Assembly: GCA_016186765.1 (NCBI GenBank)
Contig: JACPLD010000002.1
Location: 110,386 to 174,385 of the forward strand
Source: Candidatus Kaiserbacteria bacterium
Lineage (GTDB): Bacteria; Patescibacteriota; Minisyncoccia; Phycocordibacterales; UBA2100
DNA: 64,000 nucleotides
Direction: 5' to 3'
Below the pieces are notes generated by a model. The model searched no databases, was not told where the DNA came from, and was given only the letters and a program-made list of their open reading frames with translations. The first letter of the stretch is position 1. Each line of letters begins with the position of its first letter. The translations under genes and the position numbers were made by a program. Below, piece after piece: positions 5,999 to 33,729 of the stretch.

Positions 5999-6069
5999 AC
6001 TTGGACATAAAGGACACACTGGCCCATTGATGTCTTTTATGTTTTATGTCCTATCTTTACCTTCACTTT

Positions 6070-6140
6070 TCGGGCTGCTGGGAATCGAACCCAGTCAACA
6101 TCCTCCCAAAGGATGCGTACTACCGGTATACGACAGCCCG
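6070..6140 (-). tRNA. tRNA-Pro (anticodon TGG)
   Basis: Reverse complement CGGGCTGTCGTATACCGGTAGTACGCATCCTTTGGGAGGATG...CTGGGTTCGATTCCCAGCAGCCCGA: anticodon loop TTTGGGA. Confidence 0.8.
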
Positions 6141-6159
6141 GCACCGGAATGCTAGCACA

Positions 6160-7341
6160 TTATCGGTTGTACCGTTTTTCGATCTCGGCAATAAGGAGCT
6201 CAACGAGGGTATTTTCATGCGTATTTTTGAAGCGCTCTGCGAGGGTTATCGTGTCTTCTCCGAGGAACTGGACTATACCTGCTCCTGACTGCGTGCGCAT
6301 GTCGCCGTCGATGTAGCTAAGTGTAAGCGCCCGCATCTCTCGCTCGGCAGTCGTTGAGCCTTCGCTTGTTGTCGTTATGATGCCGATGAGAAAGCCCCAT
6401 GCGTTCACGACGGCTCCACCCGAGGAGCCACTCTGCGCCTCCTGTACGCCAGCAAGCGAGAGAAGGTCGACACTGTTCTCAAATGTGAGGAGGCCTTTGA
6501 CAGAAGTAATAGAAGACGCTGGGTACAGGTTGAAGGCCGTAGCACGGGCACTGACAAATTCCGACGGGTAACTTGCCGCTAAAACCGAATCACCGGGGAA
6601 GCCGATCGCCTCACGCGTATCGATCGGAAGTGAGGGGAACGCACTCGGGAGCGTCGTGCGAGAGTCGGGCAGTTTTGTGATGCGCAGCAGCGCGTAATCG
6701 TGTTCTCCGGTCCCGAGAGGACTCTCTTCGGTAATCTCTGCAGCATGCTTCTCGATCCAGATGGGTGGGATGTAGAGCACATCGACGCTGCCGATTATCT
6801 GCGCCGGCGCACTGGCGCGAACCACGCACGAGAGATTGGTGCGCTCGCTTTGCGAAAGCAGCACGTACTGCGCCACGTGCGCGTTGGTAAGAATCACGCC
6901 GCGCGAATCGATGATGACGCCACTGCCGGAGGTTGCATGCAATCCGGCGTCTTCTGGAACGCAGAGAATATTGACGAGCGCGAGGCGAGTGTTCTCGTTG
7001 ATGGTGAGGAACGATTGCGGAGGAGTGGGGTAGGGGTTTTGTATTCGGATAACGGAGGAAACCGATGCGTCGGGAGTGGGAGAGGAAAGCGGAGCAACCG
7101 GCTCCTCACTCACCTTCGGGGTTTCCGGTGGGGGAGGGGGCGCTGGCGCTTGCTCGATCTCGGAGCGAGAGGCGTCTTCTTGCTGCGGCTCGTAGGTAGC
7201 GGCAATGTTCGCGACCTGCGAAGCCTCGGGCCTCTCTTGCGAAGGAGCGCCCTGCGGCTGCTCTGCGAGCAGCACGAGCACTGCCACGATGATGGCGAGT
7301 GCGCCGATGAGCAGGATGCGTGAAGATGAGGGAGCAGACAT
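6160..7341 (-). CDS. Membrane-anchored trypsin-like serine protease (S1/HtrA-like, no PDZ seen)
   Basis: N-terminal TM, Pro-rich linker, then GSGVIIDSRGVILTNAHV (His) and GSSGGAVVN (Ser) catalytic motifs. Confidence 0.75.
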   Translation of the reverse strand: MSAPSSSRILLIGALAIIVAVLVLLAEQPQGAPSQERPEASQVANIAATYEPQQEDASRSEIEQAPAPPPPPETPKVSEEPVAPLSSPTPDASVSSVIRIQNPYPTPPQSFLTINENTRLALVNILCVPEDAGLHATSGSGVIIDSRGVILTNAHVAQYVLLSQSERTNLSCVVRASAPAQIIGSVDVLYIPPIWIEKHAAEITEESPLGTGEHDYALLRITKLPDSRTTLPSAFPSLPIDTREAIGFPGDSVLAASYPSEFVSARATAFNLYPASSITSVKGLLTFENSVDLLSLAGVQEAQSGSSGGAVVNAWGFLIGIITTTSEGSTTAEREMRALTLSYIDGDMRTQSGAGIVQFLGEDTITLAERFKNTHENTLVELLIAEIEKRYNR

Positions 7342-15530: not shown

Positions 15531-15608
15531 CAGCGAGGCTTAGCCTGCCTGTCGGTAGGCAGGTGGAAAATCACGTTTTTCGTCGTTTTTGCCGCTATAC
15601 TTAGTTGA

Positions 15609-16829
15609 ATGGTTCGTTTTCATTACACTGCCGAGAGAGGGGGCGGCGAGACGTATACCGGTGTGGCGGAGGCACAGGACCGTTTTGAGATCTACGGGAT
15701 CGTGCGGCGTGAGGGCGGGAGGATCGTTTCGCTCTCTGAAGAGGGCGCAGGGAGCTGGCTCTCGCTGAAGTCACTCAACGGAATGATCACCGCGGTCAGA
15801 GAGTACGACAAAGTAGTCTTCGCACGCAATCTCGGTGCAATGCTTAGCGCCGGCCTATCGCTCTCCCGAGCGCTCTTAGTAATGGAGCGGCAAACGAAGA
15901 ATGCCAAACTCATGGCGATCGTCGTGGGGATCGCGAGCGACATTCGACGCGGCTCGAGCCTGCACGAGGCGCTCGCAAAGTTTCCCCGACACTTTTCGAA
16001 TCTCTTCGTTTCGATGGTTCGTGCGGGCGAGGAGGGCGGAAGCCTGCCGGAGGCGCTCTCTGCTATCTCCGAGCAGATGGAGCGGATGTATCAGCTCAAA
16101 AAAAAGATACGTGGCGCCTTGATTTATCCGGCGATCATCGTTGTTGCGATCATTGGCATCGGCACGTTGATGATGATCTACGTCGTGCCTACGCTCGCGC
16201 AAACCTTTGAGGAGATGAACGCACAGCTCCCGCTCTCGACACGTGCCATCATTGCGATCAGCGATTTCCTCGTCGAATACACGATGCTCGTGCTCGGTGG
16301 CGCACTCGGACTCTTCGCGCTCCTTTGGGTCGCGGCGCGCACCGCTCTCGGGAAGCGCATGCTTGACCTCTTCTTCATCCGTTTGCCCTTGATCGGGAGG
16401 ATGGTGCGCGAGGTCAACTCCGCCCGCACGGCGCGCACGCTCTCCTCACTCCTTTCTTCCGGGGTCGATGTTCTCGCCTCGCTCGAGATTACAAAGCAGG
16501 TTGTGCAGAATTCGTACTTCCGCGATGTCATCAAGGATGCCGGGATCAGTGTCGGCAAGGGAGAGCCGCTCTCCGCGGCATTTTCGCGGCGAGGCGATCT
16601 CTACCCGGCGTTTGTTCCCGAGATGATGGCGGTGGGGGAGGAGACTGGGGCGCTCTCGGAAATGCTGAAGCGCCTCGCCGCCTTCTACGAAGAGGAGGTG
16701 GATCGCAAGACGAAGGACATGTCCACGATCGTGGAGCCCTTCCTTATGATCGTGATCGGCGGCGCGGTGGGATTCTTTGCGGTTTCGATGATTACGCCCA
16801 TCTACTCACTTTCGCAGAATATAGGATGA
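15609..16829 (+). CDS. pilC: Type IV pilus platform protein PilC (GspF family)
   Basis: Two GspF repeats and polytopic membrane topology. Directly downstream of pilB. Confidence 0.85.
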   Translation: MVRFHYTAERGGGETYTGVAEAQDRFEIYGIVRREGGRIVSLSEEGAGSWLSLKSLNGMITAVREYDKVVFARNLGAMLSAGLSLSRALLVMERQTKNAKLMAIVVGIASDIRRGSSLHEALAKFPRHFSNLFVSMVRAGEEGGSLPEALSAISEQMERMYQLKKKIRGALIYPAIIVVAIIGIGTLMMIYVVPTLAQTFEEMNAQLPLSTRAIIAISDFLVEYTMLVLGGALGLFALLWVAARTALGKRMLDLFFIRLPLIGRMVREVNSARTARTLSSLLSSGVDVLASLEITKQVVQNSYFRDVIKDAGISVGKGEPLSAAFSRRGDLYPAFVPEMMAVGEETGALSEMLKRLAAFYEEEVDRKTKDMSTIVEPFLMIVIGGAVGFFAVSMITPIYSLSQNIG

Positions 16830-16841
16830 CGCTCCACGCGT

Positions 16842-18653
16842 ATGCATTTTCGGGGCACGCATAATTTTCTGGTGAAAATTTGCTCCCGCTCGCGCCGTCG
16901 CGCTGCGCAAGTCCCCAAAAACGCACACGCGCGTCGCTTGGATGGGCAGCGCGGCGTGACGCTCCTCGACACGCTTATTGGAAGTGCCTTGATGCTCGTA
17001 ATTTTTTTAGGCATCGTTGGCGTGTTCCAGCTATCTATCGACGTCATCGTAAACAACAAAGCCCGGGGGGGCGCGATCGCGCTCGGTAACGAGCGTATGG
17101 AGTACCTCCGCTCGCTTTCCTATCCGCAGATCGGCGTCATCGGCGGTATTCCTGCGGGAATCGTCCCGCAAGAAGAAACGGTGGTGAGCAATGGGATTCC
17201 GTATACACGTAGAACAATGGTGCTCTACAGCGATGATCCGGGCGACGGCCTCGGTGCATCGGACACGAATGGCATTATCGCCGACTACAAGACGATTCGA
17301 GTCGAGGTCAACTGGCAATCTGGAGGTAACGAGCGTGGCGTCACCTTGGTCGGGCGTGTCTCACCCTTCGGGGTCGAAACAGCAGTAGCCGGCGGGACGC
17401 TCACGATCAATGTGGTAAATGAGGCGGCATCTCCCGTTTCGAACGCGCAGGTCGACATCGTGAACGCGAGCACAACGCCGCCGATCAACATCCGCACGTA
17501 CACCAATATAGATGGCATTGTCACCTTCATTGGTGCTCCCGCAGCAAGCGACTACCGGATTACCGTATCGAAGCCGGGATACTCAAGCGCGCAGACATAT
17601 TCGGTGACGGCTGAGAACCCGAACCCAACGCCCCGACACCTCACGGTTGTGGACAATCAAACAACCTCAGCAAGTTTTACGATCGATTACGTGGCGAACA
17701 AAACGGTTGAGACGTTCATGCACATACGTGAAAATTCCTGGAGCGATACGTTCTCTGATACGAGCAAAATAGACACGATGTCTTCGACTACCGTTGCCGG
17801 GGGCGTGGTGCGGCTTACCGGGGTCCCCGGAAATTATCAGTCGCCCGGAACGCTACGCTCGATATCGATTGCACCTTCGTCACTGTATCGGTGGAAGCGT
17901 TTTTCGGCATCGACAAGCACACCGTCGCAAACAGGGATTCTCTTTCACTTCTATGATGCTGGAAGCATGCTCATTCCAGAGTCGCAGCTTCCGGGAAACG
18001 CAGCAGGGTTTGCGACCTCGAGTGTCGATCTCTCAAGCATTTCCACGACGACGTATCCGCAGCTTCGTGTCGATACAACACTTACCTCGATAGATGCGGC
18101 TTCGACACCGTCCGTCGGGGAGTACTCGCTCCTCTACGACTATGGGCCCGACCCACTGCTGAATTTCTCATTTACAATGCGCGGCGCAAAAACCATCGGA
18201 AACAATCCAACCGTCTACAAGTATGATCAAACCAACACAACTGGCTCAGACGCGCGTCTCACACTCTCGAGCATCGAGGCAGATACCTACACACTTGGCG
18301 TTGCAACAACCTCCGGCTACGTGCTCGCCGAAAGTTGCAATCCCCAACCCGAAGTGCTCGCGCCCGCCTCTTCGCAAACAACTCGGCTGTATGTCCTTCC
18401 CTCCACGCCGCACTCGCTCCTGATTGACGTGCGTTCGAGTGCAGGTGCTCTCTTGCAGGATGCATCCGTGCGTCTCACAGAGACCAGCTACGACGTCACA
18501 AAACCAACGAGCTCCTGCGGCCAAAGCTTCTTCGGTTCTCTCGAGAATGCGAGCTATACAGCGACGATAAGTAAGAGCGGCTATCAACAGTACTCGACCA
18601 GCGTGAGCGTGAATGGCGTAACTCGTCTTTCTGTCACACTCAATCCTCAATGA
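16842..18653 (+). CDS. Large prepilin-type (pseudopilin-like) protein with a carboxypeptidase-regulatory-like/Ig-like beta domain
   Basis: Prepilin-like leader ...QRG|VTLLDTLIGSALMLVIFLGIV. A likely TTG/GTG start is near 16938. CarbopepD_reg-like segment TLTINVVNEAASPVSNAQVDIVN...YRITVSKPGY. Confidence 0.6.
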   Translation: MHFRGTHNFLVKICSRSRRRAAQVPKNAHARRLDGQRGVTLLDTLIGSALMLVIFLGIVGVFQLSIDVIVNNKARGGAIALGNERMEYLRSLSYPQIGVIGGIPAGIVPQEETVVSNGIPYTRRTMVLYSDDPGDGLGASDTNGIIADYKTIRVEVNWQSGGNERGVTLVGRVSPFGVETAVAGGTLTINVVNEAASPVSNAQVDIVNASTTPPINIRTYTNIDGIVTFIGAPAASDYRITVSKPGYSSAQTYSVTAENPNPTPRHLTVVDNQTTSASFTIDYVANKTVETFMHIRENSWSDTFSDTSKIDTMSSTTVAGGVVRLTGVPGNYQSPGTLRSISIAPSSLYRWKRFSASTSTPSQTGILFHFYDAGSMLIPESQLPGNAAGFATSSVDLSSISTTTYPQLRVDTTLTSIDAASTPSVGEYSLLYDYGPDPLLNFSFTMRGAKTIGNNPTVYKYDQTNTTGSDARLTLSSIEADTYTLGVATTSGYVLAESCNPQPEVLAPASSQTTRLYVLPSTPHSLLIDVRSSAGALLQDASVRLTETSYDVTKPTSSCGQSFFGSLENASYTATISKSGYQQYSTSVSVNGVTRLSVTLNPQ

Positions 18654-19246
18654 GTATGAAAAACAAACGAGGCCTCACGATGATCGAAACGGTGGTATGG
18701 ATCGCGGTGTTTATTGCAGCGATGACCGCAGTTGTCGTGACACTCATTTATTTCTACCGCACGAACGCCTACTCGATCGAGCAAGCGAGCGCTGTCACTT
18801 CGGCGCAGCGCGGGCTCGAGCAAATCGTGCGTACGATCCGCGAGGGCGCCTATTCAAGCGAGGGCGCCTTTCCGATAGTTTCGATCGCTGCGAACGATTT
18901 CATCTTTTACGCCGACATCGATGAGGACACGCTCATCGAGCGTGTGCACTACTACATTTCGGGTACTAATCTCGTGCGCGGAGTAATCGAGCCGACGGGA
19001 AATCCGCCGGCGTACACAGCTCTCGAGGCAACCTCTACGATCGCTGAGTATGTCCGCAATGCTGAGCAAGGAATCACGACATTCCGCTACTATGACGAGC
19101 TCGGCAGTGAGATCACAAACTACGCGAACTGGACAGCCGTGCGTTTTGTGAAAGTGACGCTCACGATCGATGTGAATACTGCGAAACTTCCTGATCGAGT
19201 GACGTTTGAGTCTTCGGCAGCGATCCGCAACCTCATCGGCAAATGA
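18650..19246 (+). CDS. Prepilin-type N-terminal cleavage/methylation domain protein (pseudopilin)
   Basis: Classic class-III signal KRG|LTMIETVVWIAVFIAA. ATGA overlap with the upstream gene. Confidence 0.65.
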   Translation: MSMKNKRGLTMIETVVWIAVFIAAMTAVVVTLIYFYRTNAYSIEQASAVTSAQRGLEQIVRTIREGAYSSEGAFPIVSIAANDFIFYADIDEDTLIERVHYYISGTNLVRGVIEPTGNPPAYTALEATSTIAEYVRNAEQGITTFRYYDELGSEITNYANWTAVRFVKVTLTIDVNTAKLPDRVTFESSAAIRNLIGK

Positions 19247-19277
19247 AGTATGGAGTATAGAGTATGGAGTATGGAGG
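19245..19277. repeat. Heptanucleotide tandem repeat (GRAGTAT)x4: GAAGTAT GGAGTAT AGAGTAT GGAGTAT GGAGG
   Basis: Seen in sequence. The same repeat family recurs at 27155..27182 and, reverse-complemented, at 60144..60178. Confidence 0.6.
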
Positions 19278-20752
19278 ATGAGAAAGCGAGTGAATTTTCC
19301 CTCTATAGCCTATACGCCATACGCGATACGCTTGGCCTCGCGAAGCCGCGCGCGGCTTCGCGAGGCGTCACTGTTTTCCTCATTCTCGGTTTTATGGGAG
19401 TCTTCGCCATCATTCTTGGAACCATCTCGAGCTACGTGCTCACCCAAGGGCGCTACGGTCGCGCACTCTACGCGCGCGAGGTTGCCCTCAACGTCGCGGA
19501 GTCCGGCCTCGAGTACTACCGCTGGTTCCTCGCACACAACCCCTCGATCATGGATAGCGGTATAGGGCTCGTAAGTCCGTACACCTATGCCGTGAACGAC
19601 CCCGAGGGCGGCTCACTCGGCTCTGCCGAAGTAACGGCATCGGTAAATCTCCAGTGCGGAGCCGTACAGTGGGCGGATATTGTTTCAAAGGGAACCGCGA
19701 GTGCCGATCCCGTCTTACCGCGCACACTGTCCGTGCGATACATGCAGCCTTCTGTTGCGGAATATTCGTATGTGGTGAACACGAACGTGTGGGCGGGCTC
19801 GAGCAGAACCATTCGTGGCCCATACCACGGGAACGGTGGCGTTAGAATGGATGCAACCCACAATGCCGACGTGACGAGTGCCGTTTCGACATGGAACTGC
19901 ACGTCGAGCTACAACTGCAACCCGTCGCAACCAAATGCGCCGGGAGTCGTCGGCACGGGCTCGAATCCCGCACTCTGGACGTATCCCGTTCCAAACATCA
20001 ACTTCGCCGCGATCGCGATCGATTTCACGGATCTCCAGACAAAAGCACAGACGCAAGGCGGCATCTACTACGGCCCTGCAAGCGGCAGTGTGAACAACCG
20101 CGGCTACCATCTCATTTTTAATGCAGCAGGCACGGTGACGATATACCGAGTGACGGAGACTGACGGCTTCGACAGCTACTCGACTCAGTACAACTGGGGA
20201 ACGGAGTACAGCGAGATCGACAACCAGACCTTGCTCGGGACATTTGCTATACCCTCAAGCTGCAGCCTCATGTTCTTCCAAGATCGGGTGTGGGTAGAAG
20301 GTACCGTCAATGGGAAGGTCACCGTTGTCGCAGCAACGCCTTCCGACGGCGCTACGGCGCCGGACGCGTATCTCAATAACAATATTCTTTACGCCGCCTA
20401 CGATGGCACCGATGGGCTCACGATCGTCGCCGAGCGAAATGTCCTCATACCGCTTGTCGTGCCCAATGTCATGGAGATCCATGGCATCTTTATCGCGCAA
20501 AGCGGGCACTACGGTCGCGACTACTTCTCGACGAGCGATCTTTCTTCGCAGTACGATCCGTACGTGACGCGCAGTCAGCTCACGACGGTGGGCACTGTCG
20601 TTTCAAACGGACGCACGGGCACCGCATGGAGCGACGGCACCGGATTCACGACGCGTCTCGATTACTATGACCAGCAGCTCGCCTTCTCACCGCCACCCTT
20701 TACGCCGGTTGCCTCAACTGACTACAAATACGCGCTGTGGCGCGAGCAATGA
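19250..20752 (+). CDS. Large hypothetical pilus-associated membrane-anchored protein
   Basis: N-terminal hydrophobic anchor (VTVFLILGFMGVFAIILG), ~450-aa extracellular part, co-oriented with the pilin genes. Start lies within the heptamer repeats; the ATG at 19271 is an alternative. Confidence 0.45.
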   Translation: MEYRVWSMEDEKASEFSLYSLYAIRDTLGLAKPRAASRGVTVFLILGFMGVFAIILGTISSYVLTQGRYGRALYAREVALNVAESGLEYYRWFLAHNPSIMDSGIGLVSPYTYAVNDPEGGSLGSAEVTASVNLQCGAVQWADIVSKGTASADPVLPRTLSVRYMQPSVAEYSYVVNTNVWAGSSRTIRGPYHGNGGVRMDATHNADVTSAVSTWNCTSSYNCNPSQPNAPGVVGTGSNPALWTYPVPNINFAAIAIDFTDLQTKAQTQGGIYYGPASGSVNNRGYHLIFNAAGTVTIYRVTETDGFDSYSTQYNWGTEYSEIDNQTLLGTFAIPSSCSLMFFQDRVWVEGTVNGKVTVVAATPSDGATAPDAYLNNNILYAAYDGTDGLTIVAERNVLIPLVVPNVMEIHGIFIAQSGHYGRDYFSTSDLSSQYDPYVTRSQLTTVGTVVSNGRTGTAWSDGTGFTTRLDYYDQQLAFSPPPFTPVASTDYKYALWREQ

Positions 20753-22745: not shown

Positions 22746-23870
22746 ATGAATAGAGCCCGAAATGCAAGTATTGTGGCGTTTTTTGTCCTCGTTCTGATGG
22801 TGGGCTCCGCACAACCGACTTCCGCGCTTACCGTTGCCGAAATGGAAGCCCAGATCCAATCTCTCCTTTCAAGAATTGTGTCTCTCTCAGGTGGCGCTTC
22901 TGTGCAGACAGATGGTTCTGTGGTTGCTTCGCCGGTGGCTCAACATCGTGTCTGCACCGTTTTATATCGCAACCTCTCGCAAGGTGCGCGGGGAGATGAT
23001 GTGCTTGTGCTTCAGGAATTTCTCCGCGCACAGGGGTACTTCTATGCAAATGCAACAGGCTACTTTGGCCCGCTGACAGCGCAGGCGGTCGCCCGCTGGC
23101 AGGCTTCTCAAGGAATTGCCGCAGTGGGTGCGGTGGGACCTCTCACACGCGAACGCATCAGGCTCTGGTGCGGCGGAGGCGGCGGTGGCGGCGGTGGCGT
23201 CATTCCAACGGACCCGTCGGCCGATCCCCGTTGCCGCGCGTGGTACGACGGCTGCAACGACTGCTCGCGCGACTATCCCGGCGGCCCCGCAATGTGCACG
23301 CTTCGGGCATGCATCTGGCAGGCGTCCGCCTACTGCAAAGAGTATTTCGATTCGAGCACGAACAGACCGCCTGTGATCTCATCTTTTTCGGGGCCGACAA
23401 TGTTGAACATCAATCAAACTGGCACGTGGACTATACAAGCAAGCGATCCAGAGAGTGGTCCCTTGAGCTACTCGCTAAGGTGGGGAGACGAATATCTCGT
23501 CGCACCTATGGCAGGGTACGCAGCCGAGGCGTTCGTACAAACAACCACCTTCACTCACGCATACAGCGCAGCTGGCACCTATACGGTCACGGTCATCGTT
23601 CGTGACTCCGCGGGAAAGGAAGCAAAAACCTCAACGACAGTCGCTGTAGGAGTGAGCAAGGACCCGTATTCTTCATGTCCGCAGTACATGCCTGCAGAGT
23701 GCATTGGCGGTACATATGTCTCTCAGGGAGTTGGCGTAGATGGCTGTCCGCTCGCTCCGAAATGTGTTCTGAACAATGTATGCACAGCGGATGCGATGCA
23801 GTGTCCCGACGGCTCGTATGTCGGGCGCACGGGGCCCAGTTGTGAGTTCGTGTGTCCATCCATTTACTAA
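22746..23870 (+). CDS. Secreted protein with peptidoglycan-binding domain and PKD-like domain
   Basis: Signal peptide, coiled-coil segment, PG_binding_1-like motif (DDVLVLQEFLRAQGYF...GYFGPLTAQAV), Gly9 linker, PKD-like beta domain, Cys-rich C-terminus. Confidence 0.55.
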   Translation: MNRARNASIVAFFVLVLMVGSAQPTSALTVAEMEAQIQSLLSRIVSLSGGASVQTDGSVVASPVAQHRVCTVLYRNLSQGARGDDVLVLQEFLRAQGYFYANATGYFGPLTAQAVARWQASQGIAAVGAVGPLTRERIRLWCGGGGGGGGGVIPTDPSADPRCRAWYDGCNDCSRDYPGGPAMCTLRACIWQASAYCKEYFDSSTNRPPVISSFSGPTMLNINQTGTWTIQASDPESGPLSYSLRWGDEYLVAPMAGYAAEAFVQTTTFTHAYSAAGTYTVTVIVRDSAGKEAKTSTTVAVGVSKDPYSSCPQYMPAECIGGTYVSQGVGVDGCPLAPKCVLNNVCTADAMQCPDGSYVGRTGPSCEFVCPSIY

Positions 23871-23929
23871 GCCCACCTATTCATAGTCGCAGCTTGCTCT
23901 TGTAAACCATCACTGGGTATACTTTCAGC

Positions 23930-26749
23930 ATGAGGAAGGCATTTGTCGTGGGTGTCCTTGTATCCCTTTGTTTTGTCGTTGCTCCCTTCACTCACGCGCA
24001 AACGGCGAGTCAGCTGCAAGCCGAAGTCAACGCGCTTCTCCAGCAACTTGCCGCGCTCCAGGCTCAGCTTCAGGCGCAACTTGGCGGCGCGGGCGTCCCT
24101 AGTGTTCTCCCGTCCGGCGTCTATGGTCAATGCCCCTCGCTCAGTCGCGCGCTCCGACAGGGGATGTCGGGTGCTGATGTCACGGCACTGCAGGCATTTC
24201 TCGCGGCAGACCCGCGGATCTATCCGGAAGGGACGATCAGCGGCTATTTCGGTGCCCTGACGCAAGCTGCAGTGCAGCGATTCCAGGCACGCGCCGGCAT
24301 CGTTTCGTCGGGAACTCCTGATACGACCGGCTATGGTTCTATCGGCCCTATGACGCGTGCGGTCATCGCAAAAGTTTGCAGCGGGGCGTATTCACCGATA
24401 CCCGGTACGTCAATTCCCCCACCGATACCGGCTATCCCGCAAGCGCAGTGTTCGTTCGCCGGCACGACGCTTGCGTCCGGAGCCGCGATCCAGATGTATT
24501 CGGTCCCGCAAGCGCCGGTCGGAGCTAGTTGCGCTTCCTACGCGCAAACGCGCCAGTGCATAAACGGAGCGATGTTAGGAAATCCAAGCTTTCAGTACAC
24601 GTCATGCAGCGATACCATCGGACAGGCATGTTTCGTAAACGGAACCATAGTGCCGCACGGCAGCAGCCGCACATTTTATACACAGTCATTGGTGCCTTTC
24701 GGGTCAGCGTGCTCGTCCATCTCCCAACAACGCACCTGCAATAATGGATCGATTTCCGGCTCGAATATTTATCAATACGCATCGTGTTCAACGGCCGCTG
24801 CAAACACCTGTGTGGTGGGCGACACGACAGTCTCCCACGGGACGGGCAGGACGTTTTATCTCAAGAGTCTCGTTCCATACGGCGAGAGCTGCACGACGTC
24901 GGCTAATTCGCAGTTGCGCACCTGCACGAACGGCACGTTGAGCGGGAGCAGTACGTTTGACAAACCGACGTGTTCGGCCGCAACATCGCCGACGTGTGTG
25001 CTCGACGGCAAGAGCGTGAATACCGGAGCTTCGGGCGACTTCTACAATACCCGCACGGTTCCGTACATGTCTGGAACGGCATGCCCGGCGGCCAACAAGC
25101 TCTCGCGCAAATGCACCAATGGGATTTTTGACGGCGACGAGAATTACCAATACGCAACGTGCTCAATATCCCCGCCGTCGTCATGTTCTCTCGCGGGACA
25201 AAACGTTTCTCATAACTCGTCGTATACATTCTTTAGGCAATCGTCCGTGCCGTTCGGAACGACGAACGGCTGTAGTTCAGTGGCGCAATCACGCAAATGC
25301 ACCAATGGCGTATTCAACGGAGAAGACATCTATAATCTGGCAAGCTGCACGGTCGGTGCGGCGAGTGCATGCACCTCACTGGATAACCTCACTATACCCC
25401 ATGGCTCTACGTCGCCGATGTACAACACACCGTCGGTTCCTTTCGGCTCGACGTGCTCGAGAGTAAATCGAACCTGCACGAACGGGAGTCTGGGCACAAC
25501 CAACACAGCCTACGGCTACAAGGTTTGCACGGTAGGGAGCGCGCCAGCGCCCACGTGCGTCTTGCAAGCCGCCAAATCCGTGTACCTCCCGAATCAGCTC
25601 GTAGCGTTTAATTGGACAACTCAAAATGTGATCAGCGGGTCCTTGCTTGGGACAGCGATCCCGAGCGCGAGTCTTGCAAGCGGATCGCGTGCAAATGCGA
25701 TCTCCTACAGCACCGTCGGCGATAAAACGGTAACCATGTCAGTAACTGGTAATCAGTCGACCGCAGGACAGTGTTCAACAATAGTAAAAGTTCAGGATAT
25801 TCTTCCGCCAACTTGCACGCTTACCATCAAAAAATCTACTGCGACGACGGCGGGCAGTGCGGTCACCTTGAATTACGCCGACACCGCGGTTATTACATGG
25901 GCGAGTGCTGGGGCGACGGATTATTCGTCCTCGACTCCTTCTTCTATGTCTGCAACCACAAGCGTTGGTGTTGCAAGCGGCTCAATGACCTTGAAGCCGC
26001 GCGAGCGTTCCTACACATACACATTCAATAATGCGGGTGGCTCGACGCAATGCGCGGTCTCGGTGAACTTCAACCCGCCGACATGCGCGACACCGACGAC
26101 CGACAAGGCGACCTATATCTATGGAGACTCTGCGACGCTGACGTGGTCTAGCACGAACGCAGATTACGCGACCGCAACTTCTTCCGACCATATTTCGCCG
26201 AGTGGGTCTGCCACATTCAATAATTTTATTGGGACCTCACCGTTCACCTTTACTTTCGTCGGGCTTGGAGGGCAGACGAGTTGTTCAAAGACTATTACAA
26301 TTCCGACGCCGATGACGATGAGCGGTCCTTCAAATAACATCTATCAACCCGGCAATGAACTTACAGTTTCGTGGTCCTACCCCGGGGCGGTAAGTACCGC
26401 AGGTGTGTATCTCATGCTTGTTGATACAGCCGGCAACAAAATTGGTACATCGAACATCGTGGCGCAACTTCCATCATCAAGCAGTTACGGATGGGTCGTG
26501 CCAATATCAATCGGCACAACTACGCTCGCGAACGGACAGTATGCTGTTCGCGCCGTCGCCTACACGCCAAAAAGCGCTTGCACGACGAGTGGCTGCGGGA
26601 CGCATACGGTGCTCGCCCGTATGGACAGCAACTTCTTTTCGATTAGCGTTCCGATCGCGACGCTTTTCGCAAATCAATTCGCCGCGGCACTCGCCGCGCT
26701 TGAGGCCGTGCTCCAATCACTTCTCGATCAGTGGGATTTATTGTTTTAA
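23930..26749 (+). CDS. Large (939 aa) secreted protein: PG-binding domain, about 7 tandem Cys-containing ~50-aa repeats, Ig-like domains
   Basis: Signal peptide; LQAQLQAQL coiled coil; PG_binding_1-like motif; repeated Q.R.CTNG..G...Y.YA.CS units; Thr/Ser-rich beta domains. Confidence 0.55.
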   Translation: MRKAFVVGVLVSLCFVVAPFTHAQTASQLQAEVNALLQQLAALQAQLQAQLGGAGVPSVLPSGVYGQCPSLSRALRQGMSGADVTALQAFLAADPRIYPEGTISGYFGALTQAAVQRFQARAGIVSSGTPDTTGYGSIGPMTRAVIAKVCSGAYSPIPGTSIPPPIPAIPQAQCSFAGTTLASGAAIQMYSVPQAPVGASCASYAQTRQCINGAMLGNPSFQYTSCSDTIGQACFVNGTIVPHGSSRTFYTQSLVPFGSACSSISQQRTCNNGSISGSNIYQYASCSTAAANTCVVGDTTVSHGTGRTFYLKSLVPYGESCTTSANSQLRTCTNGTLSGSSTFDKPTCSAATSPTCVLDGKSVNTGASGDFYNTRTVPYMSGTACPAANKLSRKCTNGIFDGDENYQYATCSISPPSSCSLAGQNVSHNSSYTFFRQSSVPFGTTNGCSSVAQSRKCTNGVFNGEDIYNLASCTVGAASACTSLDNLTIPHGSTSPMYNTPSVPFGSTCSRVNRTCTNGSLGTTNTAYGYKVCTVGSAPAPTCVLQAAKSVYLPNQLVAFNWTTQNVISGSLLGTAIPSASLASGSRANAISYSTVGDKTVTMSVTGNQSTAGQCSTIVKVQDILPPTCTLTIKKSTATTAGSAVTLNYADTAVITWASAGATDYSSSTPSSMSATTSVGVASGSMTLKPRERSYTYTFNNAGGSTQCAVSVNFNPPTCATPTTDKATYIYGDSATLTWSSTNADYATATSSDHISPSGSATFNNFIGTSPFTFTFVGLGGQTSCSKTITIPTPMTMSGPSNNIYQPGNELTVSWSYPGAVSTAGVYLMLVDTAGNKIGTSNIVAQLPSSSSYGWVVPISIGTTTLANGQYAVRAVAYTPKSACTTSGCGTHTVLARMDSNFFSISVPIATLFANQFAAALAALEAVLQSLLDQWDLLF

Positions 26750-27152
26750 GGCGTCCCGGATTTTTTGAGCCGATTCTTCCGCCTCTCTTTCTTTGTAGGT
26801 CCTTTGCGGCATGAGCTTGAGGCCGTCGCCTTTGAAGCGCGGAATAATATGCACGTGCGGGTGATGCACGACTTGCCCCGCATGCTCGCGGTTGTTCATT
26901 GCGATGTTGACGCCGTCTGCGGCAATGCCCTTTTCTATTGCAATCGTAAGTTTCCGTACGGTTTCTGAAACGGCTGCCCAATCCTCGGGAGAGATATCGA
27001 AAATGTTGTTCGCGTGCGTTTTCGGAACGACAAGCGTATGGCCGGCATTGACTGGACGGATGTCGAGGAACGCGATGGTTTTGTCATCCTCGTAGACTTT
27101 GTAGCTTGGCAGCTCGCCGCGGACGATCTTGCAGAAGATACAGTCAGGCATA
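26738..27152 (-). CDS. HIT family (histidine triad) protein
   Basis: HPHVHIIPR histidine-triad motif and zinc-binding CxxC (CIFCKI) at the N-terminus. ORF track extends to 27199 through the repeat. Confidence 0.8.
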
Positions 27153-27154
27153 TG

Positions 27155-27182
27155 TGAAGTATGGAGTATGAAGTATGGAGTA
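27155..27182. repeat. Heptanucleotide tandem repeat GAAGTAT GGAGTAT GAAGTAT GGAGTAT
   Basis: Fills the 47-bp divergent spacer between the HIT gene and the recJ start. Confidence 0.6.
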
Positions 27183-27198
27183 TCAAGCATGAGATACA

Positions 27199-28875
27199 AT
27201 GGAGCCGATGCAACTTTCAGAACTCGTAAGGTCGCTTCTCGAAAAACGAGGTATCACGGATCCCGCCAGTATTTCAACGTTTCTCAATCCCGATTATGAA
27301 CGTGATACGCACTCACCGTTTCTGCTTGCGGGGATGGAGCGGACGGTTGCCCGTGTTCTCTCTGCTATTCGCAACGGCGAGCGAATAGCGATCTATGCGG
27401 ATTTCGATTGTGACGGCATCCCGGGTGCGGCGCTTATCTCGGATTTTTTCAAAAAGGTAGGATACTCGAATTTCGAGGTATACATCCCGCACCGCGACCG
27501 CGAGGGCTACGGGTTTCATACAGAGGCGATTGAGGAACTCACGCAAAGCGGTGTCTCCCTCATTATCACGGTCGATGTCGGGACGAATGCACTAGAAAGT
27601 GTTTCATTTGCAAAAGAGAAAGGTATCGATGTGATTGTTACCGATCACCATGAGCCGACGGGAGCGCTGCCAGATTGCATTGCAGTGCTCAACCCGAAAT
27701 TAGGCGAGTACCCATTTCGTGATCTCTGCGGTGCAGGGGTTGCTTTCAAGCTTGTTCAAGCACTCCTCCTCGAGGGAAAGAAACAGGGGCTCGAAGCTTT
27801 TGTGAAGGTTCCCGACGGCTGGGAGAAATGGCTTTTGGATCTCGTGGCGATCGCAACGGTCGCGGATCTCGTGCCGCTCGTCGGCGAAAATCGAACACTC
27901 GTGCACTTCGGTCTCAAAGTGCTTCGCAAATCGCCGCGAGCCGGGATCTCTGCGCTCTGCAATGCGCTCCGTATGCGAAAGAGCGACCTCACGGAGGAAG
28001 TGATCGCGTTCTCGATCGCGCCGCGCATTAATGCCGCTTCGCGTATGGACGAGCCCGAGTTTGCCTTCAGACTTCTTGTCACGACCGATCACCGCGAAGC
28101 GGAGAGAATCACGGCGCACCTCGAGGAGCTGAACGCTCGGAGAAAAACAGCAGTGGCGAGTGTTGTGAAGGCAGCAAAGCGCACGGCACGAACACGCTTT
28201 CGCTCCGACGAGCGCATTATCGTTCTGGGCTCTCCGGAGTGGAAACCGGCGTTATTGGGTCTTGCCGCGAATTCACTTGTGGAGGAGCGCGGGGGCGTTG
28301 TATGTCTCTGGGGGCGTGATGCAAGGGGGCGCATCAAGGGTTCGTGCCGCTCTGACGGCTCCATCTCGGTCGTGCAACTTTTCTCGAATGCACGGGACGC
28401 GTTCATCGAATTTGGTGGGCACGAGAGATCTGGGGGCTTTACGATTTCACATGAGCGCATACACACGCTCCACGAATCGCTCGCATCCGCAAGCAGCGCG
28501 CTCGCAGAGGCTCCACGTATGGAGGAGCAAACACATGATGCGCTCATTTCACTCCCCGAACTCACTGGATCGCTCTTTGAAGAAGTTTCGAAGCTCGCGC
28601 CATTCGGCGTCGGCAATCCAAAACCGCGTTTTCTCGTTTCTTCCATCACTGTTTCCTCTGTGCGCAAGTTTGGCCGCGAGAGCAACCATGTTGAGGTTCT
28701 TGTTTCATGTGAGCGGACCGGTATTTCCGCGCGAGCGTTCGATTTCTTCAATTCACCTGAAGATTTTATGCACGTTCCCAAGATCGGGAACTCCGTGCGT
28801 CTCCTCGCCACGGTAGAGAAAGACAATTTTCGTGGTGGCATTGCGCTCAGGCTCGTGGATGTTCTCGGTGCCTAG
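27199..28875 (+). CDS. recJ: Single-stranded-DNA-specific exonuclease RecJ
   Basis: DHH motifs (DFDCDGI, DHHEP) and DHHA1 region. Confidence 0.85.
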   Translation: MEPMQLSELVRSLLEKRGITDPASISTFLNPDYERDTHSPFLLAGMERTVARVLSAIRNGERIAIYADFDCDGIPGAALISDFFKKVGYSNFEVYIPHRDREGYGFHTEAIEELTQSGVSLIITVDVGTNALESVSFAKEKGIDVIVTDHHEPTGALPDCIAVLNPKLGEYPFRDLCGAGVAFKLVQALLLEGKKQGLEAFVKVPDGWEKWLLDLVAIATVADLVPLVGENRTLVHFGLKVLRKSPRAGISALCNALRMRKSDLTEEVIAFSIAPRINAASRMDEPEFAFRLLVTTDHREAERITAHLEELNARRKTAVASVVKAAKRTARTRFRSDERIIVLGSPEWKPALLGLAANSLVEERGGVVCLWGRDARGRIKGSCRSDGSISVVQLFSNARDAFIEFGGHERSGGFTISHERIHTLHESLASASSALAEAPRMEEQTHDALISLPELTGSLFEEVSKLAPFGVGNPKPRFLVSSITVSSVRKFGRESNHVEVLVSCERTGISARAFDFFNSPEDFMHVPKIGNSVRLLATVEKDNFRGGIALRLVDVLGA

Positions 28876-32212: not shown

Positions 32213-32240
32213 CGGCGCGTTTCCACGCGCCGTTCTTTTA
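32213..32240 (+). terminator. Rho-independent terminator-like hairpin + T-tract (bidirectional position between the small ORF and sodA)
   Basis: CGGCGCGTTTCCACGCGCCG followed by TTCTTTTA. Confidence 0.45.
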
Positions 32241-32831
32241 TGCAATTTCTTCAAAGCGCTTCTCGATCACGCCCCAATTGAGATTTTTGAAGAACGCGTC
32301 GATGTATTTCCCTTTGCCTAGAGCTCCGTAATCAAGAATGAACGCGTGCTCCCACACATCGAGCGCAAGGATGATGGGGAGCGTCACGAAGTGTCCTTGA
32401 TGTTGCTCGCCAGTGAAACCGGTGAGAAGTTCACTCGCATTGGGATCGTAATAGAGAATGGCCCAGCCCGGTCCTCTCATATTGCCGATCATTGTCATGA
32501 CTTTCTCTGCTGTGTACGGGCGATAGGTACTCTCAAGTGCTTTCGCAAGAGCTCCCTCTGTGGTGAGCGGAATCGAACCGCCCTCAAACTGCGAGAAGTA
32601 ATACTCATGCAGGCGCATCCCGTCGAATTCAAAGCTGCGCCTGCGCATGAGCTCGGCAATCGCGTGCGCATATTTTTCTGAGTCTTCCGTTGCGAGTTTT
32701 GCGAGGAGTTTCGATATGGCATTGAAGTTTTTCACGTACCCTTCATACAGTCCAAGGTGTTGTTTCACCGACTCATCAGAGATTCCATCGAGTTTCGGGA
32801 GATCGAACCTTTTCGCTTCGTAGGTGTGCAT
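32238..32831 (-). CDS. sodA: Fe/Mn superoxide dismutase
   Basis: C-terminal DVWEHAFILDYG metal-ligand motif. ORF track extends to 33140; ATG (MHTYEAKRFDLPKL) at 32831 is preferred. Confidence 0.85.
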   Translation of the reverse strand: MHTYEAKRFDLPKLDGISDESVKQHLGLYEGYVKNFNAISKLLAKLATEDSEKYAHAIAELMRRRSFEFDGMRLHEYYFSQFEGGSIPLTTEGALAKALESTYRPYTAEKVMTMIGNMRGPGWAILYYDPNASELLTGFTGEQHQGHFVTLPIILALDVWEHAFILDYGALGKGKYIDAFFKNLNWGVIEKRFEEIA

Positions 32832-32874
32832 GCGCGCAGTATAGCATCGCGGTTCATGAAGGTAGAATGACGCA

Positions 32875-33729
32875 ATGCGAAGGAGCATGGTTGTCATCGG
32901 CACAACGCTCGCCGCCCTCGTGATCGCCACTACCCTGATCTGGTTCGCTATTTTTTGGGAGGAGAGACGTGGTCTTCTCGCTGTTTCGTTTCTCGATGTT
33001 GGGCAAGGCGATGCGATTTTCATCGAGAGCCCAAGCGGGCGACAAGCACTCGTCGATGGTGGTCCTGATAGAAGTGTTCTGCGCGAGCTTGGGCAAGTGA
33101 TGCCATGGTACGACCGCTCGATCGATGTCGTTATCGCCACTCATCCGGACGCCGATCACATAAGCGGACTCGTCGACGTACTTCAGCGTTACCGTGTCGA
33201 TTACATTTTTCAGCCAGGTGTCGAAAAAAATACTGGCCCTGCCGAATCCATGCTGCTTTCTGTCGCGAAGGAAGGAGCAGAAGAAATATATGCACGGCGC
33301 GCCCAGATACTTGACCTTGGCGAAGGTGCGTACCTCGAAATCCTGTTTCCGGATAGAGATGTATCGGGTGTCGAAACGAATACGGCTTCCATCGTTACTC
33401 GGCTCGTCTACGGCAATACTGCCTTCATGCTCACCGGCGATGCGCCAGAGGCCATCGAGAACTATCTTGTGCAGCTTGATGGAGAGGACCTGAGGGCAAA
33501 CGTCTTGAAAGTCGGCCATCACGGCTCCGATACATCCTCATCTGAGTTATTCGTTGGATTTGTATCCCCCGAATATGCCGTGTTTTCGCGTGGGTGTGAC
33601 AACCGCTATGGTCATCCTCACGAAGAAGTTGTCGCGCTCTTTAATCGCTTCGAGATTCAAACTTTTGATACGTGCGAGGATGGCACGATAACGTTCATGT
33701 CCGACGGAGCAAAAGTGGAAAAGCGCTAG
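32875..33729 (+). CDS. MBL-fold metallo-hydrolase, ComEC C-terminal-domain-like, with N-terminal TM
   Basis: VSFLDVGQGDAIFIE...VVIATHPDADHISGL...KVGHHGSDTSS, typical of the ComEC beta-lactamase domain. Confidence 0.7.
   Translation: MRRSMVVIGTTLAALVIATTLIWFAIFWEERRGLLAVSFLDVGQGDAIFIESPSGRQALVDGGPDRSVLRELGQVMPWYDRSIDVVIATHPDADHISGLVDVLQRYRVDYIFQPGVEKNTGPAESMLLSVAKEGAEEIYARRAQILDLGEGAYLEILFPDRDVSGVETNTASIVTRLVYGNTAFMLTGDAPEAIENYLVQLDGEDLRANVLKVGHHGSDTSSSELFVGFVSPEYAVFSRGCDNRYGHPHEEVVALFNRFEIQTFDTCEDGTITFMSDGAKVEKR

What the first reader, a model, noticed from the sequence alone, without database searches (positions are those of the whole stretch)
22746..26749. Two adjacent paralogous secreted proteins with PG-binding domains; the larger carries about 7 tandem Cys-pair repeats
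Both proteins start with a signal peptide, a coiled coil and a PG_binding_1-like domain, which is a shared module. The 939-aa protein then has about 7 tandem ~50-aa units of the form Q.R.C[TN]NG...G....Y.YA.CS, each with a conserved Cys pair, followed by Thr/Ser-rich Ig-like domains and a terminal coiled coil. The 374-aa protein has a (Gly)9 linker, a PKD-like domain and a Cys-rich tail.

This looks like a cell-wall-anchored adhesin family. For a putative episymbiont it would be a prime candidate for host attachment, and no characterised homolog is evident.
Basis: partly seen in the sequence, partly recalled or inferred. Interest (0 to 1): 0.5.

Follow-up and report, generated by a model that had tools for sequence, protein, structure and literature searches.

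The report
Wall-anchored surface proteins with unnamed repeat
Two neighbouring genes of an uncultured Kaiserbacteria (CPR) genome encode secreted, non-enzymatic proteins with a shared peptidoglycan-binding base; the larger one is built from six copies of a 60-residue, four-cysteine module that is widespread in public data but has no family name or solved structure, and its function (adhesion or wall architecture) remains untested.

Summary
Both ORFs exist exactly as given (A 22746-23870, 374 aa; B 23930-26749, 939 aa) and share an N-terminal module of signal peptide, heptad helix and Cys-bracketed PG_binding_1. The repeat description needs correcting: six units of 60-63 aa with four invariant Cys each, not about seven units of 50 aa with a Cys pair.

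After the repeats, B has four Ig-like domains (rare in the family) and a conserved amphipathic C-terminal helix found almost only with the PG-binding base. A also carries a Gly9 hinge, a pacifastin-like knot, a PKD domain and a degenerate Kazal-like tail. The A-type/B-type gene pairing is conserved across Kaiserbacteria.

Best reading: a non-covalently wall-anchored pair of surface fibre proteins. An adhesin or host-attachment role is plausible but unsupported by direct evidence. Both proteins are already deposited as 'peptidoglycan-binding protein'. What is new is the unnamed module and the architecture. Moderate interest.

The parts
22746..23870 (+). ORF A, 374 aa. 100 % identical to an NCBI 'peptidoglycan-binding protein [Candidatus Kaiserbacteria bacterium]'.
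22746..22889 (+). A: predicted Sec signal peptide (aa 1-27) and amphipathic N-terminal helix (aa 28-48).
   Evidence: Read from the sequence; hydrophobicity and moment; aligns with B's N-terminus.
22953..23171 (+). A: PG_binding_1 domain bracketed by C70 and C142.
   Evidence: E = 1.6e-12, 47.8 bits against cut-off 23; Cys positions.
23172..23198 (+). A: (Gly)9 hinge, aa 143-151.
   Evidence: the codon run is the only DNA tandem repeat in the region.
23232..23336 (+). A: 6-Cys pacifastin-like knot, aa 163-197 (CRAWYDGCNDCS...CTLRAC...C). Sub-threshold match.
   Evidence: Pacifastin_I E = 0.0064, 16.6 bits against cut-off 27.9; conserved in orthologues P0248 and P0256.
23361..23639 (+). A: PKD domain, aa 206-298.
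   Evidence: PKD_4 E = 1.9e-10, PKD E = 8.1e-7, both above cut-off.
23676..23855 (+). A: Cys-rich tail, aa 311-370. Contains a divergent remnant of the Kazal-like module seen in orthologues, plus the conserved terminal mini-module CTADAxQCPDGSxVGRTGPxCxFVCP.
   Evidence: 31 of 120 listed orthologues carry a Kazal_1 hit.
23930..26749 (+). ORF B, 939 aa. Equals NCBI MBI2610692.1, 'peptidoglycan-binding protein [Candidatus Kaiserbacteria bacterium]'.
23930..24085 (+). B: predicted signal peptide (aa 1-23, ...THA|Q) and heptad-patterned N-terminal helix (aa 24-52).
   Evidence: Sequence; (hydrophobic residues at 29, 33, 36/37, 40, 43, 47, 51).
24131..24379 (+). B: PG_binding_1 domain bracketed by C68 and C150. 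The most conserved part of the protein (77 % identity to P0148).
24380..24448 (+). B: Pro-rich linker, aa 151-173.
   Evidence: Sequence; poorly conserved.
24449..25555 (+). B: six tandem 60-63-aa four-Cys beta-modules, R1-R6. Nucleotide ranges: 24449-24628, 24629-24808, 24809-24994, 24995-25183, 25184-25369, 25370-25555. Family consensus: C.fnG.tvahG.s.tay..ssvp.g..C.s..q.RtC.nG.LsGs..y.yasC.
   Evidence: AF2 model of R2-R3 with pLDDT 97.2; no family or significant fold match.
25556..26644 (+). B: four Ig/FnIII-like beta-sandwich domains. Ig1 25556-25813, Ig2 25814-26083, Ig3 26084-26305 (each Cys-bracketed and joined by PPTC linkers), and Ig4 26306-26644 (Kre9/KNH-like in orthologues).
   Evidence: AF2 pLDDT 84.5; Foldseek PDB; Kre9_KNH hits in P0148 and P0122; alignment A3.
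26645..26746 (+). B: conserved amphipathic C-terminal helix (model helix = aa 909-938), ending ...LLDQWDLLF. Orthologues typically end ...LDSWF.
   Evidence: 34 of 35 helix-positive family members also carry the PG-binding N-module; Fisher p = 6e-17.

Best explanation
A and B are a conserved, same-strand pair of Sec-exported, non-catalytic envelope proteins of a Candidatus Kaiserbacteria bacterium.

Shared base. Each starts with an amphipathic heptad helix followed by a disulfide-clamped PG_binding_1 three-helix bundle. I infer that this base tethers the protein non-covalently to the bacterium's own peptidoglycan.

Protein B. From the base, B projects a semi-rigid shaft of six disulfide-stapled 60-aa beta-modules (an undescribed domain family). 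Four Ig-like domains follow, and the protein ends in a conserved amphipathic helix. I infer that this helix mediates oligomerisation or docking, possibly with the N-terminal helices of A and/or B.

Protein A. A projects a shorter, hinged arm: Gly9, a pacifastin-like knot, a PKD domain and a degenerate Kazal-like tail.

Function. Together they would form a wall-anchored surface fibre layer whose distal, less conserved domains contact whatever lies outside the cell, such as a host surface or another envelope layer.

What is shown and what is inferred. Shown: the domain anatomy, the folds, the family distribution and the gene pairing. Inferred: self-wall anchoring, shaft rigidity, helix-mediated assembly and any adhesive role.
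For: Anatomy:
- PG_binding_1 is above threshold in both proteins, and the N-modules share 34 % identity.
- B has six four-Cys units that fold as confident all-beta modules (pLDDT 97.2).
- The C-terminal region is four beta-sandwiches plus a helix, with tandem Ig/FnIII matches that include the Ig-like shaft of the Aureispira grappling-hook protein GhpA.

Anchor logic:
- In family members without PG_binding_1, a lipoprotein signal (FQNC-type lipobox) sits directly before the repeats. This applies to 35 of 124 representatives, including Bdellovibrio and Pseudobdellovibrio proteins. PG_binding_1 therefore occupies the position of a membrane anchor.
- The PG-binding module is the most conserved region (77 % against 41-45 % for the distal Ig3-Ig4 in the closest orthologue), as expected for a fixed base with a more variable tip.
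- There is no LPXTG motif, TM segment or enzyme domain.

Module as spacer or binding unit: across the family it is combined with many different extracellular heads, including BNR, NHL and RCC1 propellers, SASA esterase, beta-helix and PKD.

Pairing:
- One or two [PG_binding_1+PKD] genes lie immediately upstream of the [PG_binding_1+Cys-repeat] gene in two other Kaiserbacteria assemblies.
- A shorter PG_binding_1 paralogue is also upstream in a distant lineage where all other synteny is lost.

C-terminal helix: strictly linked to the PG-binding form (34 of 35; p = 6e-17).

Context from the literature: secreted proteins with PG-binding, Ig-like and PKD domains are among the most highly expressed unknown-function genes in archaeon-parasitising Paceibacteria (PMC10936435). 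Homology of those proteins to A or B could not be tested.
Against: - No experiment or expression data exist for these proteins or any homologue.
- PG_binding_1 could bind host rather than self peptidoglycan.
- No recognised adhesive or lectin domain is present.
- The Ig-like extension is rare: only five proteins among those fetched, one GTDB species genome and one JGI metagenome locus. Most orthologues go straight from the repeats to the helix, so the Ig domains cannot be the core function.
- Co-transcription of A and B is not demonstrated. The promoter/terminator scan was at chance level.
- The disulfide pairing and the geometry of the shaft could not be read out, because model coordinates are not exposed and there is no Cys co-loss signal.
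- No PG-synthesis genes lie in this window, so the presence of a wall in this organism rests on general knowledge of Parcubacteria.
Confidence: 0.55

Rival explanations
1. Host-directed tether. The PG_binding_1 module binds the cell wall of the host or prey cell. The protein is held on the symbiont by its C-terminal amphipathic helix (inserted into, or docked onto, the symbiont's membrane or S-layer). The repeats and Ig domains act as the spacer of an intercellular bridge.
For: - The conserved C-terminal helix is found only together with the PG-binding module, which would make sense if one end is the grip and the other the handle.
- The family is shared with predatory or epibiotic Bdellovibrionota, including Pseudobdellovibrio exovorus.
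- The authors of PMC10936435 propose host attachment for PG-binding secreted proteins of Paceibacteria.
Against: - The helix contains E, D and Q, and its best 19-residue mean hydrophobicity is 0.58, so it is amphipathic rather than a membrane anchor.
- In the lipoprotein relatives the anchor is N-terminal, the same position as PG_binding_1.
- Known Paceibacteria hosts include archaea that lack murein (PMC10936435).
- The PG-binding end emerges first from the Sec channel, next to the cell's own wall.
Confidence: 0.15
2. Envelope architecture rather than adhesion. A and B are structural components of the Kaiserbacteria cell envelope, for example wall-to-S-layer struts or spacers that set envelope thickness, with no role in host recognition.
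For: - The genes are single-copy, syntenic and sit among housekeeping genes (tpiA, pgk, HIT, recJ, comEC) across Kaiserbacteria.
- The repeats are old and diverged with no DNA-level repetition.
- Conservation is moderate and even along the protein.
- No adhesive domain was found.
- The Nealsonbacteria preprint speculates that PG-binding proteins contribute to the complex envelope seen by cryo-EM.
Against: - Internal units are shuffled, and unit number varies from 3 to 12 among PG-binding-type members, which is unusual for a precise structural ruler.
- The C-terminal heads are variable or optional.
- The same module is attached to many different extracellular heads in other taxa.
Confidence: 0.2
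3. Wall-anchored protease inhibitors (mainly protein A). The Kazal-like and pacifastin-like Cys knots of the A family inhibit serine proteases at the cell surface, protecting the symbiont or modulating host proteases.
For: - Pacifastin_I matches A residues 166-190 at E = 0.0064, with the CN.C...CTLRAC signature.
- 31 of 120 listed A orthologues carry Kazal_1 hits and 2 carry Pacifastin_I.
- Orthologues show clear C..EY.PVCG...TYGNRC...G.C modules.
- A secreted trypsin-like protease is encoded in the same window (6160-7341).
Against: - In A itself both hits are below Pfam's cut-off, the fourth pacifastin Cys is missing, and the post-PKD Kazal module is degenerate.
- The Kazal hits in orthologues cover only profile positions 8-19 of 49.
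- This explanation says nothing about B's repeats.
Confidence: 0.08

Closest known systems
Non-covalently wall-anchored modular surface proteins of monoderm bacteria (an anchor such as PG_binding_1, LysM or SH3b followed by tandem stalk domains), and 'fibrillar adhesin-like' proteins in general
   Same: Signal peptide, a wall-binding module, a long array of small tandem beta-domains, Ig-like domains, and no catalytic domain.
   Different: The stalk module is an undescribed four-Cys domain. No recognisable adhesive tip is present. Heptad helices sit at both ends. There is no LPXTG/sortase signal. The organism is a CPR bacterium whose envelope is poorly characterised.
Eukaryotic disulfide-rich extracellular beta-modules: fibronectin type I (PF00039), CCP/Sushi (PF00084) and vWC
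GhpA grappling-hook protein of Aureispira (PDB 9flu, 9flv and related entries) and other tandem Ig/FnIII shafts such as complement C3 MG domains and PTP-delta Ig-Fn
   Same: B's residues 543-905 fold as four consecutive beta-sandwich domains that match these arrays (Foldseek E down to 1.6e-11).
   Different: Sequence identity is only 10-17 % and the global TM-score about 0.2. This is a generic fold-class match, not homology to a specific system. B has four such domains, not hundreds, and no hook.
Kazal (PF00050) and pacifastin (PF05375) serine-protease-inhibitor knots (relevant to protein A)
   Same: Cys spacing and short signatures (CN.C, CTL+AC; in orthologues EY.PVCG...TYGNRC).
   Different: Below the family thresholds in A. 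One canonical Cys is missing. No reactive-site loop can be assigned. The knots are embedded in a PG-anchored PKD protein.

Membership tests
PG_binding_1 (PF01471) | Pfam HMM score above the gathering threshold (23 bits). | tested here: met
   A 47.8 bits (residues 82-137); B 35.2 bits (residues 80-132).
PG_binding_1 (PF01471) | Actual binding to peptidoglycan. | not testable with these tools
   Needs a pull-down with purified sacculi.
PKD domain (PF18911 / PF00801) | Pfam HMM score above the gathering threshold. | tested here: met
   A residues 206-298: PKD_4 41 bits against 27; PKD 29.4 bits against 23.5.
CCP / Sushi (PF00084) | A module of about 60 aa with four conserved Cys. | tested here: met
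   Units of 60-63 aa; four Cys invariant in 1,240 of 1,243 units.
CCP / Sushi (PF00084) | Match to the family HMM. | tested here: not met
   No Sushi hit in B at E <= 1. Among 82 unit pairs only Sushi_2 appears, in 2 of them and below threshold.
CCP / Sushi (PF00084) | Conserved Trp between Cys3 and Cys4. | tested here: not met
   The family consensus between C3 and C4 is C.nG.LsGs..y.yasC, with no conserved W.
CCP / Sushi (PF00084) | Significant structural superposition on solved CCP modules. | tested here: not met
CCP / Sushi and FnI | Disulfide pattern C1-C3, C2-C4. | not testable with these tools
   Model coordinates are not exposed, and the invariant Cys give no co-loss signal.
Fibronectin type I (PF00039) | HMM match and significant fold match. 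| tested here: not met
Pacifastin inhibitor (PF05375) | HMM above the gathering threshold (27.9 bits) and six Cys in the canonical pattern. | tested here: not met
   A residues 166-190 score 16.6 bits, E = 0.0064. The position of canonical Cys4 is Ser (CNDCSRD).
Kazal (PF00050) | HMM match in protein A. | tested here: not met
   No Kazal hit in A at E <= 1. Orthologues have hits of 24.8-30.8 bits, but these cover only profile positions 7-19.
Sortase-anchored (LPXTG) surface proteins | C-terminal LPXTG motif followed by a hydrophobic segment and a basic tail. | tested here: not met
   No LPxTG anywhere in A or B; the C-termini are ...FVCPSIY and ...DQWDLLF.
Fibrillar adhesin-like proteins (operational class: anchor + tandem stalk domains + adhesive domain) | Anchor and tandem stalk domains. 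| tested here: met
   PG_binding_1 plus six Cys units plus four Ig-like domains.
Fibrillar adhesin-like proteins | A recognisable adhesive or ligand-binding domain. | tested here: not met
   No such Pfam or NCBIfam domain in A or B. Ig4 is only Kre9/KNH-like, and only in orthologues.
CPR pilus accessory protein PamR (NF058578) | NCBIfam equivalog score of at least 300 bits. | tested here: not met
   A residues 222-293 score 24.9 bits. This is a generic Ig-like resemblance confined to the PKD domain.

The most novel reading that the evidence does not exclude
The four-Cys 60-aa unit is a previously unrecognised bacterial extracellular module class, a prokaryotic analogue of CCP/FnI 'beads'. It forms the shaft of contact fibres specific to bacteria that live on or prey upon other cells (Patescibacteria and Bdellovibrionota). 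In Kaiserbacteria, the heptad helices at the N-termini of A and B and at the C-terminus of B assemble the two gene products into a hetero-oligomeric, peptidoglycan-rooted fibre that mediates host contact.
Probability: 0.12. Interest if true: 0.65.

Novelty: new variant of a known kind. Interest (0 to 1): 0.4.

Why it matters
How CPR/Patescibacteria hold on to their hosts, and how their envelopes are built, is largely unknown outside a few cultured Saccharibacteria.

This locus gives a concrete, conserved and easily expressed pair of candidate surface proteins for the very large and uncultured Paceibacteria/Kaiserbacteria branch. It also defines a widespread domain (more than 2,300 clusters at 50 % identity, up to 43 copies per protein) that current family and structure databases do not name.

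Defining that domain would improve the annotation of thousands of 'hypothetical' or 'peptidoglycan-binding' proteins. A named family would also let proteomics and cryo-ET studies recognise these proteins. If the adhesion hypothesis fails, the proteins are still useful markers of envelope architecture. The finding is useful but not transformative without functional data.

Tried and rejected
1. Assigning the repeat to a known family failed. This covered Pfam and NCBIfam scans of the whole proteins at E <= 1, individual scans of 82 diverse unit pairs (which returned only scattered Cys-spacing noise such as zf-CCCH, Paramecium_SA, Sushi_2 and TSP1_CCN) and a profile search of PDB sequences with 0 hits at E <= 10.
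3. The word-index homologue search with B's C-terminal 397 aa was swamped by low-complexity Ser/Thr words and returned nothing, not even the protein itself. It is uninformative and should not be read as absence.
4. Genome and metagenome scans for the long form each found one locus. The AF2 alignment for the C-terminus therefore stayed shallow, at 5 sequences.
5. Reading the disulfide pairing from the model was not possible because no coordinates are available. Inferring it from correlated Cys loss also failed because the Cys are invariant.
6. The promoter/terminator scan meant to test co-transcription gave counts at chance level.
7. Neighbourhoods of lipoprotein-type relatives in Bdellovibrio-like genomes showed no recurring partner.
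8. A link to the upstream type IV pilus genes was rejected as evidence. tpiA and pgk intervene, and the shared order in close relatives is ordinary synteny.
9. The weak NCBIfam hit to the CPR pilus protein PamR is a generic Ig-like similarity restricted to the PKD domain.
10. Literature searches by accession and by keywords found no description of these proteins or of the repeat.
11. Relating A and B to the highly expressed PG-binding proteins of PMC10936435 was not possible, because that paper's supplement holds no sequences.

Full report
**1. What is in the sequence**

- ORF A (22746-23870, +, 374 aa) and ORF B (23930-26749, +, 939 aa) are intact ORFs at exactly the coordinates given. They are separated by 59 bp and follow pgk by 37 bp.
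- B's stop overlaps the end of a convergent HIT-family gene (26738-27199, -) by 12 nt.
- A is 100 % identical to an NCBI protein named 'peptidoglycan-binding protein [Candidatus Kaiserbacteria bacterium]'. B is MBI2610692.1 with the same name.
- The window is therefore a piece of a Kaiserbacteria (Patescibacteria/CPR) genome. It is a housekeeping stretch: CCA-adding enzyme, trypsin-like protease, RNase Y, trigger factor, NusA, PilB/PilC, TpiA, Pgk, HIT, RecJ, ComEC, SOD, EF-G, EF-Tu, L2, SecY and PurD.

**2. The shared N-terminal module**

- Both proteins have PG_binding_1 above Pfam's gathering score.
- Their first ~170 residues align at 34 % identity, E = 5e-19.
- No other ORF in any frame of the window contains this module or the repeat.
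- In both, the PG-binding domain is bracketed by a Cys pair (A C70/C142; B C68/C150). It is preceded by a typical Sec signal peptide and an amphipathic helix whose hydrophobic residues follow a 3-4 spacing.
- The signal peptides and the 'coiled coil' are read from the sequence. No dedicated predictor was available.

**3. The repeats, corrected**

- The cysteines of B fall in groups of four. Cutting at the first Cys gives six units of 60-63 aa (residues 174-542) with 29-52 % pairwise identity. Nine columns are invariant, including all four Cys, plus R, N-G, P and G.
- At DNA level there is no tandem repeat in B. The only Tandem Repeats Finder hit in the region is the Gly-codon run of A. The array is therefore ancient and diverged, not a slippage-prone contingency repeat.

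**4. The unit is a real, widespread and unnamed domain**

- A profile made only from B's six units retrieves 2,349 50 %-identity cluster representatives at E <= 1e-3 from 1.84 billion proteins (1,259 at <= 1e-10 and 434 at <= 1e-30). One 2,688-aa protein carries up to 43 copies.
- Over 686 units from 120 homologues the consensus is C.fnG.tvahG.s.tay..ssvp.g..C.s..q.RtC.nG.LsGs..y.yasC.
- The four Cys are present in 1,240 of 1,243 full-length units of 244 members.
- Nothing in Pfam-A, NCBIfam or PDB sequences matches the unit. This holds for the whole protein at E <= 1, for 82 diverse unit pairs scanned one by one and for the profile.
- AlphaFold2 on units R2-R3, with an 82-sequence alignment of unit pairs, gives a very confident all-beta model (mean pLDDT 97.2).
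- The weak neighbours are consistently small disulfide-rich extracellular modules of eukaryotes: fibronectin type I, CCP/Sushi and vWC. This is a resemblance in style only. The unit fails the CCP and FnI membership tests (no HMM match, no conserved Trp, insignificant Z).
- The disulfide pairing could not be determined.

**5. Who has the unit, and in what company**

- Named sources among the hits are Patescibacteria (Kaiserbacteria, 'Patescibacteria group') and Bdellovibrionota. The latter include Bdellovibrio spp., Pseudobdellovibrionaceae and a 998-aa, 15-unit protein of the cultured epibiotic predator Pseudobdellovibrio exovorus JSS, WP_015469866.1.
- In the Patescibacteria form the units follow the helix + PG_binding_1 module. 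Among 86 such proteins the median is 6 units, mostly 6 or 7, with a range of 3-12.
- In the Bdellovibrio-type form the units follow a lipoprotein signal with an FQNC-type lipobox (35 of 124 representatives).
- Larger members combine the units with many different extracellular domains: PG_binding_1 in 13 of 42, otherwise BNR, NHL, RCC1 or SBBP propellers, SASA esterase, beta-helix, PKD, DUF285 and cytochrome c.
- The unit thus behaves as a general-purpose extracellular spacer or binding module placed next to an anchor.
- Neighbourhoods of two lipoprotein-type members show no recurring partner.

**6. The rest of B**

- Residues 543-939 were modelled with a five-sequence alignment (pLDDT 84.5). 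They form four beta-sandwich domains and a single helix at residues 909-938.
- The first three domains are each bracketed by Cys and joined by PPTC linkers. The fourth corresponds to the weak Kre9/KNH Ig-like hits seen in orthologues.
- Foldseek finds 213 PDB matches at E <= 1e-3, all tandem Ig/FnIII arrays: GhpA grappling-hook shaft fragments, complement C3 MG domains and PTP-delta. This confirms 'Ig-like' but points to no specific system.
- The extension is rare. Only P0148 (53 % identity over the full length), P0143 (40 %), P0192 and P0183 share it among the proteins fetched. Pattern scans found one species-representative genome and one JGI metagenome locus.
- Most orthologues pass directly from the last unit to the C-terminal helix.
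- That helix (...LAAALxALExxLxxLLxxLDSWF) is amphipathic and not hydrophobic enough for a membrane span. It occurs in 34 of 86 PG-binding-type members against 1 of 158 others (Fisher p = 6e-17).

**7. Protein A in more detail**

- After the PG-binding domain come a Gly9 hinge (residues 143-151), a 6-Cys knot (163-197), the PKD domain and an 8-Cys tail.
- The 6-Cys knot matches Pacifastin_I weakly (E = 0.0064) and has the CN.C...CTLRAC signature, but it lacks the fourth canonical Cys.
- A's family is large: 627 hits, nearly all PG_binding_1 + PKD.
- Many orthologues carry clear Kazal-like modules (C..EY.PVCG...TYGNRC...G.C) before and/or after the PKD domain. A has lost the first and retains a degenerate second, plus the conserved terminal CTADAxQCPDGSxVGRTGPxCxFVCP mini-module.
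- The weak NCBIfam hit to the CPR pilus protein PamR (24.9 bits against a cut-off of 300) is confined to the PKD domain and is a generic Ig-like similarity.

**8. Gene pairing**

- In two other Kaiserbacteria assemblies (GCA_001781475.1 and GCA_022842645.1) the order is TIM - PGK - ... - one or two [PG_binding_1+PKD] genes - [PG_binding_1+Cys-repeat] - HIT(-) - RecJ - DUF975 - RNase H - MscL - ComEC. This matches the window.
- That alone could be ordinary synteny. However, in the distant P0143/L008 lineage every other neighbour differs, and a 262-282-aa PG_binding_1 protein still lies just upstream. Its N-module is 39 % identical to A's.
- In L007 the upstream ORFs have no Pfam hit and a PKD protein lies downstream, so the pairing is frequent but not universal.
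- Co-transcription is not shown.

**9. Conservation pattern**

- Against the closest orthologue, identity is 77 % for the PG-binding domain, 53-65 % for five of the six units (R5 is only 26 %), then 66, 53, 45 and 41 % for Ig1-Ig4 and 44 % for the helix. This is a gentle base-to-tip gradient.
- R1 nearly always, and R3 and R6 usually, keep their positional identity across orthologues. R2, R4 and R5 do not, which indicates internal duplication or replacement over evolutionary time.

**10. Interpretation**

- The best-supported reading (confidence about 0.55) is a pair of Sec-exported, non-enzymatic surface proteins rooted non-covalently in the cell's own peptidoglycan through the shared N-module. 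B forms a beaded shaft of disulfide-stapled modules.
- The strongest argument for the anchor role is positional: a lipid anchor replaces PG_binding_1 in diderm relatives.
- The terminal heptad helices suggest oligomerisation or A-B assembly. This is inference only.
For A, a protease-inhibitor role is a minor possibility.
- The literature contains only general statements. PG-binding, Ig-like and PKD secreted proteins are among the most highly expressed unknown-function genes in archaeon-parasitising Paceibacteria and were proposed to mediate attachment (PMC10936435). PG-binding proteins were speculated to contribute to the complex envelope of Nealsonbacteria (bioRxiv 10.1101/2022.04.20.488981).
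- Neither paper describes the four-Cys repeat, and accession searches found nothing.

**11. Verdict**

- The adhesin interpretation is plausible but unproven.
- The proteins themselves are already deposited under an automatic name.
- What is new is the recognition of an unnamed, very widespread four-Cys extracellular module, the conserved A/B pairing, and the helix-PG_binding_1-repeat-helix architecture.
- I rate this a new variant of a known kind (wall-anchored modular surface proteins), with interest about 0.4.

Noticed in passing
window 13800-20752 (+): A type IV pilus block: PilB (T2SSE + MshEN, 13800-15530) and PilC (T2SSF, 15609-16829). Three ORFs follow (16842-18653, 603 aa, with CarboxypepD_reg repeats; 18650-19246, 198 aa; 19250-20752, 500 aa) that match no Pfam or NCBIfam family. 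Counterparts of the last two also precede tpiA-pgk in GCA_001781475.1. They are possibly minor pilins or tip proteins of a CPR pilus.
   Followed up: partly
window 60177-63047 (+): A 956-aa ORF whose only hit is TraG-D_C (E = 1.2e-6). It may be a type IV secretion coupling protein, of interest given recent work on a Patescibacteria T4SS.
   Followed up: no
window 6160-7341 (-): A trypsin-like (Trypsin_2) peptidase of 393 aa is encoded in the same window as the Kazal/pacifastin-like protein A. No link between them was tested.
   Followed up: no
window 26738-26749: The 3' end of ORF B overlaps the 3' end of the convergent HIT-family gene (26738-27199, -) by 12 nt. The same tail-to-tail arrangement is seen in GCA_001781475.1 and GCA_022842645.1.
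   Followed up: partly
P0124 (2,465 aa), P0128 (1,499 aa), P0121 (2,688 aa); metagenomic proteins, not in the window: Extreme architectures built on the same four-Cys unit. P0124 has 10 units, a SASA carbohydrate esterase and two C-terminal PG_binding_1 domains. P0128 has 12 units and BNR/sortilin-type propellers. P0121 has 43 units in one lipoprotein-like protein.
   Followed up: partly
L007 (CAYGKV010000006.1) 4516-7149: The only GTDB species-representative genome carrying the long form of B is titled 'uncultured Candidatus Saccharibacteria bacterium'. Here the upstream ORFs lack PG_binding_1, and a 1,447-aa PKD protein lies downstream. Either the family crosses CPR classes or the record's label is loose.
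   Followed up: no
window 32238-33140 (-): The ORF as listed is 300 aa, but the Fe/Mn superoxide dismutase match covers only residues ~120-299. The true start is probably internal, or there is an N-terminal extension. An SOD is a notable feature in a CPR genome.
   Followed up: no
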